Positions 55,119-55,781 of a DNA stretch of 64,000 nt are shown here, piece by piece. A model generated the notes under the pieces. That model worked only from the letters and a program-made list of their open reading frames with translations, ran no database searches and was not told the DNA's origin. Location of the stretch: positions 356,900 through 420,899 of the forward strand of contig CAVPPF010000007.1 of assembly GCA_963707435.1 (NCBI GenBank), read 5' to 3'. The DNA comes from an uncultured Actinomycetota bacterium. GTDB taxonomy: Bacteria; Actinomycetota; Acidimicrobiia; Spongiisociales; UBA4744. Both the position numbers and the translations under genes were made by a program. Each line of letters starts with the position of its first letter. Position 1 is the stretch's first letter.

Positions 55119-55151
55119 GGGTGTGCTACGCTCCCGCCCAACGTCCTTTAA

Positions 55152-55172
55152 TGCCGGTCCCGTGAGGCCGGA
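55152..55172 (+). promoter_or_regulatory. putative PyrR-binding RNA hairpin in the pyr leader
   Basis: UGCCGG-UCCCGUGAGG-CCGGA: CCGG/CCGG stem around a loop that contains UCC-C-G-U-GAGG. This matches the PyrR binding-loop consensus UCCNGNGAGG as I recall it. Located 34 nt after the nusB stop and 80 nt before pyrR. Confidence 0.55.
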
Positions 55173-55185
55173 AAGGAGCATCACC

Positions 55186-55266
55186 ATGCACAGATTCTGC
55201 AGACATGCCGCCCCCGGGGCGGCCTTTTTCTTGAGCAGCCGGAGGAGGGGCACATGGCGAAAGTAA
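55186..55266 (+). other. 26-codon leader uORF ([26 protein letters not shown]) spanning the leader terminator and ending inside the pyrR start region
   Basis: ATG 8 nt after AAAGGAG. The reading frame runs through the terminator hairpin and stops at 55264-55266, overlapping pyrR codons 4-5. Coding status is unproven. Confidence 0.3.
55207..55232 (+). terminator. intrinsic terminator/attenuator in the pyr leader
   Basis: GCCGCC-cccgg-GGCGGC (6 bp all-GC stem, 5 nt loop) immediately followed by CUUUUUCUU. A U-tract this clean is unusual in this GC-rich window. Confidence 0.6.
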
Positions 55267-55781
55267 TGAACTCGGAAGAGATCGACCGCGCCCTCCGTCG
55301 CATTGCGCACGAGATCCTGGAACGAAACATGGGAGCTGCCGACGTGATGCTCGTCGGGATCCACACCAGAGGTGTCCCCCTCGCCGAACGGCTTCGCCAT
55401 GCCATCGACGAGTACGAGAGCGAGAAGGTCCCGGTCGGGACGCTCGACATCGGGCTCTATCGCGACGACCTCGACCGCCGGCCGACGACCGAGCTGGGAG
55501 CCACGCTGATGCCGGAGGACCCCACGGGCCGAATCGTCGTCCTCGTCGACGACGTCCTCTACACCGGCCGCACGATCCGTGCCGCTCTCGATGCGCTCGC
55601 AGATCTGGGTCGACCGCAAGCAGTTCAACTGGCGGTGCTCGTCGATCGCGGGCACCGGCAACTTCCCATCCGGGCCGACTATGTCGGCAAGAACCTGCCG
55701 ACCTCCTCAAACGAACAGGTGAAGGTGCGCCTGCACGAAACCGACGGGAAGGACGGCATATGGATCGAGGAGCGCACATGA
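55254..55781 (+). CDS. pyrR: bifunctional pyr operon regulator / uracil phosphoribosyltransferase
   Basis: ..[17 protein letters not shown].., [21 protein letters not shown] (PRPP motif). GGAGGAGGGG RBS. Confidence 0.9.

What the first reader, a model, noticed from the sequence alone, without database searches (positions are those of the whole stretch)
55119..55267. pyr leader combining a PyrR-box hairpin, a short uORF and a U-tract terminator in a high-GC genome
The 135 nt nusB-pyrR spacer holds three elements in order: a hairpin presenting UCCCGUGAGG (PyrR binding-loop consensus UCCNGNGAGG); a strong SD (AAAGGAG) with an ATG 8 nt later opening a 26-codon frame; and a GC stem-loop followed by CUUUUUCUU that the uORF reads through. 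The uORF stop overlaps pyrR codons 4-5. Bacillus uses PyrR-dependent transcription attenuation, whereas mycobacteria are thought to use PyrR-dependent translational occlusion. This leader appears to combine a terminator with a translated leader. PyrR binding may control both termination and leader-peptide coupling.
Basis: partly seen in the sequence, partly recalled or inferred. Interest (0 to 1): 0.5.

Follow-up and report, generated by a model that had tools for sequence, protein, structure and literature searches.

The report
Ribosome-coupled PyrR attenuator before pyrR
The spacer before the pyrimidine operon is a genuine PyrR-binding RNA leader. The protein's binding hairpin hides the ribosome-binding site of a short upstream reading frame that runs through a transcription terminator, a layout already proposed for Thermus and here shown to recur in several phyla.

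Summary
The nusB-pyrR spacer is 135 nt (55119-55253). It holds:
- a PyrR-box hairpin (55144-55177, box 55158-55167)
- the Shine-Dalgarno (SD) sequence AAAGGAG (55172-55178), which forms the 3' strand of the hairpin's lower stem
- an ATG at 55186 that opens a 26-codon upstream ORF (uORF)
- a 7-bp GC terminator with tail CUUUUUCUU (55207-55232) inside that frame
- a uORF stop (TAA, 55264-55266) that overlaps pyrR codons 4-5

Rfam's PyrR model (RF00515) matches full length. The score is 45 bits, below the 54-bit gathering threshold, and it is the only significant Rfam hit in the 64 kb (E = 0.006).

Ten distinct relatives (PyrR 76-88% identical) keep the hairpin, the ATG, the reading frame and a stop that overlaps a pyrR start. 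Nine keep an intact terminator (L172's U-tract is interrupted), and the sequence between these elements has diverged.

No Bacillus-type antiterminator exists here. It is predicted in 25 of 33 uORF-less leaders and in 0 of 12 clade leaders.

The best model is the one I recall being proposed for Thermus ZO5. A ribosome translating the leader prevents terminator formation, and PyrR blocks that ribosome. Meiothermus, Dehalococcoidia and other Acidimicrobiia show the same layout.

Verdict: a real feature and a new member of a known but experimentally unproven kind. Interest is moderate.

The parts
54693..55118 (+). nusB, the upstream gene. Its stop TGA (55116-55118) lies 3 nt before the conserved promoter-like block.
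   Evidence: ORF. NCBIfam TIGR01951 scores 95.8 bits against a cutoff of 88.35. The order aroB-efp-nusB-pyrR-pyrB-pyrC is shared by all close relatives.
55122..55132 (+). Putative extended -10 promoter element TGTGCTACGCT (TGn + TACGCT at 55127-55132). The predicted transcription start is about 55139-55141, 3-5 nt before the hairpin.
   Evidence: GTGCTACG-T is invariant in 11 clade sequences while the flanks vary. A TANNNT hexamer lies 4-24 nt upstream of CCTTTAA in 50 of 65 high-GC PyrR leaders, against 1-6 of 65 in control windows. The simple sigma-70 scan found nothing. Promoter function is inferred.
55144..55177 (+). PyrR binding hairpin: 6-bp lower stem, AAUG bulge, 6-bp upper stem, CCGUGA hexaloop. 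The box UCCCGUGAGG is at 55158-55167.
   Evidence: Matches Rfam RF00515 positions 1-38 with every upper-case consensus base. Predicted in the MFE of every construct folded. Upper-stem covariation across 121 leaders: 95.7% of cells paired, and 100 cells changed on both sides against 18 in shuffles, reached by 0 of 500 shuffles.
55172..55178 (+). Shine-Dalgarno AAAGGAG of the leader ORF. Six of its seven bases form the 3' strand of the hairpin's lower stem.
   Evidence: Read from the sequence. [AG]AAGGAG is invariant in the clade. Predicted unpaired probability is 0.15 or less for 55172-55177 in the leader constructs without the pyrR start, even without PyrR.
55186..55266 (+). Leader ORF (uORF): ATG, 26 sense codons, TAA stop. 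The stop overlaps pyrR codons 4-5 as UAAUG.
   Evidence: The ATG is invariant in 11 clade sequences among diverged flanks. The ATG-to-pyrR distance is 68 or 62 nt, so always the same frame. In 10 of 10 distinct leaders the stop overlaps a pyrR-frame start codon as AUGA, GUGA, UGAUG, UAAUG or UAGUG. No gene caller called it. The peptide matches no family.
55192..55194 (+). Conserved rare arginine codon AGA at uORF codon 3, with a second AGA at 55201-55203.
   Evidence: AGA is at codon 3 in 9 of 10 distinct clade leaders and at codon 4 in L173, while neighbouring codons vary. AGA makes up 4.2% of Arg codons in the window's ORFs. Its role is unexplained.
55207..55232 (+). Intrinsic terminator: 7-bp GC stem, 3-nt loop, C, then U5CUU. 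It lies wholly inside the uORF (codons 8-16).
   Evidence: dG is -14.5 kcal/mol and P(stem) is 1.00 in the leader ensemble. It is conserved in the clade, with one pair going G-C to G-U to A-U. It is the only such element in the 64 kb. It matches the terminator part of RF00515.
55241..55250 (+). pyrR's own Shine-Dalgarno, GGAGGAGGGG, ending 3 nt before the ATG.
   Evidence: Read from the sequence. A G-rich block (mostly GGGGGGAG) is kept in most clade members but is weak in L165 and L175. No conserved structure sequesters it.
55254..55781 (+). pyrR, encoding the bifunctional regulator/uracil phosphoribosyltransferase and first gene of pyrR-pyrB-pyrC-pyrD-pyrF.
   Evidence: NCBIfam NF003547 scores 254.9 bits against a cutoff of 230. 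It is 58% identical to a Bacillus PyrR, including the N-terminal RAL.RIAHE..ERN segment. Downstream genes were identified.

Best explanation
This is the 5' leader of the pyrR-pyrB-pyrC-pyrD-pyrF operon, and it works as a PyrR-responsive, ribosome-mediated transcription attenuator.

Transcription probably starts about 55140 from an extended -10 promoter just after nusB. The first 35 nt of RNA fold into the PyrR binding hairpin, whose lower stem contains the SD of a 26-codon leader ORF.

When pyrimidine nucleotides are low, PyrR does not bind. A ribosome then opens the weak lower stem, initiates at AUG 55186 and follows RNA polymerase into the terminator's 5' arm, which starts at codon 8. The terminator hairpin cannot form, so transcription continues into pyrR. 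The leader ORF ends on a pyrR-frame AUG, which may also hand the ribosome on to pyrR.

When UMP/UTP-charged PyrR binds, it locks the hairpin and hides the SD. No ribosome loads, the unprotected terminator folds and transcription stops at the U-tract.

Shown here: the elements, their homology to PyrR sites, their conservation, and the absence of an antiterminator. Inferred: translation of the uORF, ribosome-dependent readthrough, the PyrR effector response and the promoter.
For: - The full-length RF00515 match covers both the binding loop and the terminator.
- The upper stem of the hairpin covaries across 121 leaders.
- The downstream gene is PyrR, above the curated cutoff.
- Ten distinct relatives at 76-88% PyrR identity keep the hairpin, the SD, an invariant ATG 16-19 nt after the box, and one reading frame (ATG-to-pyrR distance 68 or 62 nt). 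All indels inside the ORF are multiples of 3. Nine keep an intact terminator inside the ORF (L172's U-tract is interrupted), and all ten keep a stop overlapping a pyrR-frame start codon. The sequence between the ATG and the terminator is diverged.
- The terminator keeps its pairing through a compensatory change.
- There is no antiterminator. The hairpin and terminator coexist in the MFE, and losing the terminator costs 11.5-13 kcal/mol. In transcripts cut before the 3' arm, only 0-4 of 7 bases of the 5' arm pair, and the partners are not conserved.
- By the same test, 25 of 33 uORF-less leaders (including Bacillus and Neobacillus) form the classical box-to-terminator antiterminator. The clade scores 0 of 12, and Meiothermus also lacks one.
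- Across de-duplicated leaders, the frame opened by the start codon after the box stays open to the pyrR start in 44 of 62 cases against 33.5 expected (P about 8e-4). In GC-rich leaders the figures are 39 of 44 against 28.6 (P about 3.5e-5). In 42 of those 44 cases the stop lies within -11 to +13 nt of the pyrR start.
- The same box-SD-uORF-terminator-pyrR layout occurs in Meiothermus rufus, Dehalococcoidia, Limnochordales and another Actinomycetota MAG.
Against: - No expression data of any kind exist. Translation of the uORF is inferred only from conservation.
- For the window alone, an open 26-codon frame is expected by chance with probability 0.84 in this GC-rich sequence.
- The uORF SD is predicted to be paired even without PyrR (unpaired probability 0.15 or less). 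Basal initiation may therefore be poor.
- Only about 45 nt separate the AUG from the end of the U-tract. A ribosome must initiate and move 3-4 codons within about a second unless the polymerase pauses, and no pause signal was identified.
- pyrR has its own strong, unsequestered SD, so coupling is not obviously needed.
- The shuffle statistics ignore shared ancestry among the loci.
- The Rfam score is below the gathering threshold.
Confidence: 0.65

Rival explanations
1. Translational control only. PyrR occludes the SD of the uORF, and pyrR expression falls because translation of pyrR, and of the operon through polarity or Rho, is coupled to uORF translation. On this view the terminator is a constitutive, leaky element. 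It may mainly damp read-through from efp-nusB, and it is not itself regulated.
For: - The uORF stop overlaps a pyrR-frame start in 10 of 10 clade leaders.
- Twenty related leaders have the box-SD-uORF-pyrR arrangement with no detected terminator. L006 carries a terminator-like hairpin with an interrupted T-run that the scan missed.
- L172 has lost a clean U-tract but keeps the uORF and the GUGA overlap.
- No terminator separates nusB from the pyr promoter.
Against: - In the window, pyrR has its own strong SD that no conserved structure hides, so coupling is not required for its translation.
- The terminator is conserved with a compensatory change and always lies inside the uORF.
- It is the only canonical terminator in 64 kb, which is odd for a mere insulator.
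- This rival is not exclusive of the main model. Both effects may operate together.
Confidence: 0.17
2. A classical Bacillus-type RNA switch. An antiterminator that my folding missed competes with the PyrR hairpin and with the terminator, and the uORF is an untranslated by-product of the AAGGAG that belongs to the conserved lower stem.
For: - AAGG(A/G) is part of the PyrR-site consensus in all lineages, including those without any uORF.
- An open frame of this length is likely by chance in the window (0.84).
- Twelve of 32 uORF-containing leaders from other lineages, mostly Dehalococcoidia, do have an antiterminator.
Against: - No alternative pairing appears in the MFE, in truncated transcripts or in the RNAalifold consensus of 11 clade sequences.
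- The terminator's 5' arm GCCGCCC has no complement in the box region.
- The invariant ATG at fixed spacing from the SD, the frame-preserving indels and the stop-start overlaps are not explained by this view.
Confidence: 0.1
3. The leader ORF encodes a functional micropeptide, and its position in the pyr leader has nothing to do with attenuation.
For: The ORF is conserved as an open frame in all relatives examined.
Against: - The peptide sequence is not conserved, apart from Met-x-Arg and the Ala/Phe residues dictated by the terminator sequence.
- It matches no protein family.
- In other phyla the length ranges from 13 to 72 codons with unrelated sequences.
Confidence: 0.03

Closest known systems
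Thermus strain ZO5 pyr leader (Van de Casteele et al., J Bacteriol 179:3470, 1997). Recalled from my own knowledge. The paper is not held in the searchable library.
   Same: As I recall it, a PyrR binding site overlaps the ribosome-binding site of a short leader ORF, a terminator lies inside that ORF, there is no antiterminator, and the leader ORF overlaps the pyrR start. The proposal was that the translating ribosome, rather than an antiterminator, prevents terminator formation. I verified this layout in another member of the Thermaceae, Meiothermus rufus (L079). There the box is followed by AAAGGAG, 6 nt and an ATG. The ORF has 30 codons, a GCGCCC/GGGCGC + U7 terminator lies inside it, its stop falls 5 codons into pyrR, and no antiterminator is predicted.
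   Different: The phylum differs: relatives point to Actinomycetota, probably Acidimicrobiia. The leader peptide is unrelated. The context is a high-GC genome in which this is the only canonical terminator seen in 64 kb. The clade has a conserved AGA codon. To my knowledge the Thermus mechanism itself was never demonstrated experimentally.
Bacillus subtilis pyr attenuators (binding-loop anti-antiterminator, antiterminator, terminator). The mechanism is described in PMC4347634 and PMC1913097, and the Rfam family is RF00515.
   Same: The PyrR protein is homologous (58% identity). The binding hairpin is homologous and matches the consensus. A downstream intrinsic terminator is present. The full-length Rfam match covers both parts.
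   Different: There is no antiterminator. A leader ORF reads through the terminator. The score is below Rfam's gathering threshold (45 against 54), whereas Bacillus and Neobacillus leaders score 60-66. The window holds a single site, not three.
Mycobacterium smegmatis pyr leader: PyrR-dependent translational repression (Fields and Switzer, J Bacteriol 189:6236, 2007). The citation appears in 10.1101/423392. The content is from my own knowledge.
   Same: The SD lies in the 3' strand of the lower stem of the PyrR hairpin, so PyrR binding occludes ribosome loading. The actinobacterial synteny efp-nusB-pyrR-pyrB-pyrC is shared. Streptomyces, Micromonospora and some Acidimicrobiia loci examined here have that direct form (class A).
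   Different: Here the occluded start codon opens an out-of-frame 26-codon leader ORF, not pyrR. pyrR has its own SD 75 nt downstream. A terminator is present.
Ribosome-mediated attenuators with leader peptides (E. coli trp, pyrBI). From general knowledge.
   Same: The position of a ribosome on a leader ORF decides whether a terminator hairpin forms.
   Different: The signal here would be whether a ribosome loads at all, as gated by an RNA-binding protein. It would not be stalling at regulatory codons or UTP-sensitive polymerase pausing. There is also no alternative RNA hairpin.

Membership tests
Rfam RF00515 (PyrR binding site) | Two-part hairpin with the conserved UUUAA bulge region and the G-U-C-C-N-G-N-G-A-G-G-C loop and closing bases | tested here: met
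   The cmscan alignment covers model positions 1-115 and matches all upper-case consensus bases of the binding loop.
Rfam RF00515 (PyrR binding site) | Score at or above the curated gathering threshold (54 bits) | tested here: not met
   The score is 45.0 bits, with no hit at gathering and E = 0.0061 for the whole window. Of the 19 related loci scanned, the window-clade and other high-GC leaders also fell below it. Only Bacillus, Neobacillus and one Dehalococcoidia leader passed.
Rfam RF00515 (PyrR binding site) | Stem pairing maintained by covariation among homologous sites | tested here: met
   Across 121 leaders, 95.7% of upper-stem cells pair. One hundred cells have changes on both sides against 18 in shuffles (0 of 500 shuffles reach this), and slid controls pair at 18-48%.
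Rfam RF00515 (PyrR binding site) | Located in the 5' leader of a pyrimidine gene in a genome that encodes PyrR | tested here: met
   It lies immediately upstream of pyrR-pyrB-pyrC-pyrD-pyrF.
Rfam RF00515 (PyrR binding site) | Binds PyrR in a UMP/UTP-stimulated manner | not testable with these tools
   This needs a gel shift or filter binding assay with purified PyrR and the 55141-55180 RNA.
Bacillus-type PyrR attenuator | Intrinsic terminator downstream of the binding loop and before the first gene | tested here: met
   The terminator is at 55207-55232.
Bacillus-type PyrR attenuator | An antiterminator that pairs the 3' half of the binding loop with the 5' arm of the terminator | tested here: not met
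   The truncated-transcript folds give 0 of 12 clade leaders with an antiterminator, against 25 of 33 uORF-less leaders. The RNAalifold consensus shows none.
Mycobacterial-type PyrR translational repression | SD sequestered in the PyrR hairpin | tested here: met
   AAAGGA at 55172-55177 is the 3' strand of the lower stem.
Mycobacterial-type PyrR translational repression | The occluded SD and start codon are those of pyrR itself, with no terminator | tested here: not met
   The start at 55186 is out of frame with pyrR and the frame stops at 55266. pyrR has a separate SD at 55241-55250, and a terminator is present.
Thermus-type leader-ORF-coupled PyrR attenuator | The PyrR site overlaps the SD of a short leader ORF that contains the terminator and ends at the pyrR start, with no antiterminator | tested here: met
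   The same layout was verified in Meiothermus rufus L079. The definition of this family rests on my recollection of the 1997 paper.
Thermus-type leader-ORF-coupled PyrR attenuator | Readthrough depends on translation of the leader ORF and is blocked by PyrR | not testable with these tools
   This needs genetics or a coupled transcription-translation assay.

The most novel reading that the evidence does not exclude
The attenuator may take two inputs. A strictly conserved rare AGA arginine codon sits at leader codon 3, often with a second AGA two or three codons later. A ribosome waiting for Arg-tRNA(UCU) at that codon would have its leading edge just short of the terminator stem. Readthrough would then need both PyrR release (low pyrimidines) and charged arginyl-tRNA. 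That would tie pyrimidine synthesis to arginine supply through the shared precursor carbamoyl phosphate. I recall that the Thermus ZO5 paper reported about two-fold stimulation of the pyr genes by arginine.
Probability: 0.08. Interest if true: 0.6.

Novelty: new member of a known kind. Interest (0 to 1): 0.38.

Why it matters
PyrR control is usually described in two forms: the Bacillus RNA switch and mycobacterial translational repression. The third form, in which a ribosome on a leader ORF acts as the antiterminator and PyrR gates its loading, was to my knowledge only proposed for Thermus and never tested.

This window and its relatives show that form is conserved in an uncultured actinobacterial lineage. 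Related layouts also recur in Chloroflexota (Dehalococcoidia), Thermaceae and Limnochordales; Acidobacteriota-labelled MAGs have the uORF without a detected terminator.

Closely related genomes carry three arrangements: a direct pyrR start, a uORF without a terminator, and a uORF with a terminator. These look like steps between translational repression and attenuation.

These leaders fall below Rfam's threshold and the uORFs are never called, so standard annotation misses them.

The case is a clean, testable example of a protein-gated, ribosome-mediated attenuator. It is not a new principle.

Tried and rejected
- Counting the bare 10-nt motif in the window is uninformative (6 found, 13 expected).
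- The lenient terminator and promoter scan is not significant (1 against 1.6, and no sigma-70 promoter).
- Thermodynamic z-scores for the leader are weak (0.32 for 152 nt, and -0.96 to -2.16 for the parts). The case therefore rests on homology and conservation, not on stability.
- The genome and metagenome scans with PyrR returned only relatives of 70% identity or less. Close relatives had to come from the protein search plus contig look-ups.
- The literature could not be retrieved. The Thermus ZO5 paper, Turnbough and Switzer 2008, Fields and Switzer 2007 and Bonner et al. 2001 are not held. Eight full-text searches found no description of a PyrR-gated leader ORF. The comparison with Thermus therefore relies on memory plus my own check in Meiothermus.
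- I considered that pyrR might really start at Met5 (ATG 55266), with the uORF stop as its coupling site. I rejected this as the sole start. An in-frame start codon (ATG or GTG) 12 nt upstream, preceded by a G-rich SD-like block, is kept in every close relative and in L001, L002, L006, L009, L013 and L021. The residues align with the Bacillus N-terminus.
- I considered the uORF as a micropeptide gene and rejected it, because the peptide is not conserved.
- My first reading put the ATG at 55187. It was corrected to 55186 after a translation error.
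Full report
**1. The observation**

The spacer between nusB (54693-55118) and pyrR (55254-55781) is 135 nt. It contains, in order:
- a conserved block TGTGCTACGCT (55122-55132)
- a two-part hairpin (55144-55177) presenting UCCCGUGAGG (55158-55167)
- AAAGGAG (55172-55178)
- an ATG at 55186 that opens 26 sense codons and ends at TAA 55264-55266
- a 7-bp GC stem (55207-55223) followed by CUUUUUCUU (55224-55232)
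- a second SD, GGAGGAGGGG (55241-55250), ending 3 nt before the pyrR ATG

The uORF stop spans pyrR codons 4 and 5 (GUAAUG). The flanking genes are identified above curated cutoffs as NusB, PyrR and PyrB. Downstream come PyrC, a class 1B-type PyrD and PyrF, followed by gmk, coaBC and metK.

**2. Is it more than chance?**

Simple measures say little.
- The 10-nt motif is no more frequent than expected.
- The lenient terminator scan finds no excess.
- Folding energies are only 1-2 sd better than shuffles.

Homology is decisive.
- Rfam's PyrR model RF00515 covers the binding loop and the terminator. It aligns end to end at 55141-55232 with 45 bits. E is 2.7e-5 in the local search and 0.0061 for the whole 64-kb window on both strands, where it is the only hit below 0.1.
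- The score is under the 54-bit gathering threshold, so default annotation reports nothing.
- A strict scan shows this is the only perfect GC stem followed by T5 on either strand of the window, which holds only seven T5/A5 runs.

**3. Relatives**

Scanning species-representative genomes and metagenomes with PyrR gave 160 loci at 51-70% identity. The best were Acidimicrobiia and Actinomycetota MAGs. A protein search found PyrR proteins at 74-100% identity. Ten contig look-ups fetched 17 syntenic loci (aroB-efp-nusB-leader-pyrR-pyrB-pyrC). These represent the window's own species plus nine further distinct leaders.

In all of them:
- GTGCTACG-T is invariant.
- The hairpin is kept.
- [AG]AAGGAG is kept.
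- An ATG follows 16-19 nt after the box and is invariant, while its flanks and the next 18 nt are highly diverged.
- The ATG-to-pyrR distance is 68 or 62 nt, so the frame never changes and the indels inside the ORF are multiples of three.
- The terminator lies inside the ORF; in L172 its U-tract is interrupted.
- The ORF stop overlaps a pyrR-frame start codon in 10 of 10 distinct leaders: AUGA or GUGA in six, UGAUG in two, UAAUG in the window and UAGUG in one.

RNAalifold on this alignment predicts only the PyrR hairpin and the terminator. One terminator pair goes G-C to G-U to A-U. Across 121 distinct leaders from many phyla, the upper stem of the hairpin covaries strongly.

**4. No antiterminator**

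In every clade member the minimum-energy fold contains the PyrR hairpin and the terminator together. The terminator stem has probability 0.9-1.0, and forbidding it costs 11.5-13 kcal/mol.

In transcripts cut just before the terminator's 3' arm, only 0-4 of the 7 bases of the 5' arm pair, and the partners differ between relatives.

As a positive control, the same procedure on Bacillus and Neobacillus leaders recovers the textbook antiterminator. There the GAGAGG of the box pairs with CCUCUC in the terminator's 5' arm and the binding hairpin is disrupted.

Applied systematically, an antiterminator is predicted in:
- 25 of 33 leaders that have a terminator but no leader start codon
- 12 of 32 leaders with a through-reading uORF, mostly Dehalococcoidia
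- 0 of 12 in the window clade
- not in Meiothermus

Without an antiterminator, PyrR binding 30 nt upstream has no RNA-based way to influence termination.

**5. The leader ORF across phyla**

I classified 135 box-containing leaders.

| Class | Count |
|---|---|
| pyrR start directly behind the box (mycobacterial form; Streptomyces, Micromonospora, some Acidimicrobiia, Chloroflexia) | 20 |
| Out-of-frame uORF behind the box, running to the pyrR start, no terminator detected (L006 has an interrupted T-run the scan missed) | 20 |
| Such a uORF reading through a terminator (17 of them from the window clade, including repeated copies) | 37 |
| Bacillus-like: terminator, with either no leader start codon (33) or a short ORF that stops before pyrR (17) | 50 |
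| Other (no leader start and no terminator, 5; short ORF without terminator, 1; unclassified, 2) | 8 |

After de-duplication, the frame opened by the post-box start codon stays open to within 15 nt of pyrR in 44 of 62 leaders. Dinucleotide shuffles predict 33.5, and the other two frames give 32-33 (P about 8e-4). For leaders with GC of 0.5 or more, the figures are 39 of 44 against 28.6 (P about 3.5e-5). In 42 of the 44, the stop falls between -11 and +13 nt of the pyrR start. These P values ignore shared ancestry. For the window alone, the frame would be open by chance with probability 0.84.

Meiothermus rufus (L079) has the same layout as the window. It has the box, AAAGGAG, an ATG, 30 codons, a GC hairpin with U7 inside the ORF, and a stop five codons into pyrR.

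**6. Mechanism**

The best-supported reading is a ribosome-mediated attenuator gated by PyrR.
- With PyrR off the RNA, a ribosome loads at the SD in the weak lower stem, which contributes about -5 of the -13.6 kcal/mol. It translates into the terminator's 5' arm, which starts at codon 8, and so prevents hairpin formation.
- With PyrR bound, the SD is locked away, no ribosome follows the polymerase, and the terminator forms.
- The stop-start overlaps suggest that the terminating ribosome is also handed to pyrR. In the window, however, pyrR has its own exposed SD, so the main effect there is probably on transcription.

Caveats:
- No expression data exist.
- The uORF SD is predicted to be mostly paired even without PyrR.
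- Only about 45 nt separate the AUG from the end of the U-tract, which leaves little time for initiation unless the polymerase pauses.

**7. Promoter**

TGcTACGCT (55124-55132) fits an extended -10 element and is invariant in the clade. A TANNNT hexamer lies 4-24 nt upstream of CCTTTAA in 50 of 65 high-GC leaders, against 1-6 of 65 in control windows. The PyrR hairpin is therefore probably at the very 5' end of a dedicated transcript. No terminator separates nusB from this promoter, so read-through from efp-nusB would also meet the attenuator.

**8. Comparison with what is known**

- The element is homologous to RF00515 sites but fails that family's score threshold.
- It lacks the antiterminator that defines the Bacillus mechanism (described in PMC4347634 and PMC1913097).
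- It shares SD occlusion with the mycobacterial scheme (Fields and Switzer 2007, cited in 10.1101/423392), but the occluded start is not pyrR's.
- It matches the scheme that, from my own recollection, Van de Casteele et al. (1997) proposed for Thermus ZO5. There, a translating ribosome rather than an antiterminator prevents terminator formation.
- I could not retrieve that paper or the relevant reviews. Eight full-text searches found no later treatment of the idea.

**9. Verdict**

This is a new member, in an uncultured Acidimicrobiia-like actinobacterium, of a known but unproven kind of PyrR control.

The wider survey adds modest new information:
- The kind is widespread.
- Rfam and gene callers miss it.
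- It sits among apparent intermediates between translational repression and attenuation.

Interest is moderate.

Noticed in passing
window 55192-55194 and 55201-55203; L165-L177 leaders: The rare arginine codon AGA makes up 4.2% of Arg codons in the window's ORFs. It is conserved at leader codon 3 in 9 of 10 distinct clade leaders (codon 4 in L173), although the neighbouring codons differ. Four leaders carry a second AGA two or three codons later. It could keep the initiation region A-rich and unstructured, or pause the ribosome just short of the terminator. Its role is unexplained.
   Followed up: partly
whole window, both strands: Only one perfect GC stem followed by T5 exists in the 64 kb, and it is the pyr leader terminator. 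There are just seven T5/A5 runs in all. Canonical intrinsic terminators seem rare in this genome.
   Followed up: partly
L172:1354-1510: This relative (82% PyrR identity) has an interrupted U-tract (GGCGGCATCTTTCG) after an intact terminator stem. It still keeps the uORF and its GUGA overlap with pyrR. It may be a lineage sliding from attenuation towards pure translational coupling.
   Followed up: no
L011, L019, L098, L103, L107, L111, L112 (Dehalococcoidia-like leaders): These leaders have both a 25-26-codon uORF that reads through the terminator and stops 5-8 nt past the pyrR ATG, and a Bacillus-like antiterminator pairing the box region with the terminator's 5' arm. In several of them the only SD-like sequence for pyrR is the G-rich 3' arm of the terminator.
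   Followed up: partly
L001-L177 against Rfam: Of the 19 related loci scanned at gathering threshold, RF00515 detected only the Bacillus and Neobacillus leaders and one Dehalococcoidia leader. The window-clade, Micromonospora, Meiothermus and other high-GC leaders scanned were missed. Gene callers never call the uORF and disagree on the pyrR start, giving 171-, 175- and 192-195-aa versions.
   Followed up: partly
window 57956-58120 (+): Between pyrC (stop 57957-57959) and pyrD (ATG 58117) lies a 54-codon frame. Its ATG overlaps the pyrC stop (ATGA) and its TGA overlaps the pyrD start (ATGA). It may be a small coupled gene or a chance open frame in GC-rich DNA. PyrD is the 1B type, and no pyrK was seen beside it.
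   Followed up: no
L003:2830-2900: About seven tandem copies of a heptamer (GCCGTCT) lie directly upstream of the pyr promoter and box in this uncultured actinomycete MAG.
   Followed up: no
window 41172-41247 (+): A weak sub-threshold Rfam match to a eukaryotic microRNA family (mir-138, 26.9 bits, E = 0.18). It is almost certainly a chance GC-rich hairpin.
   Followed up: no
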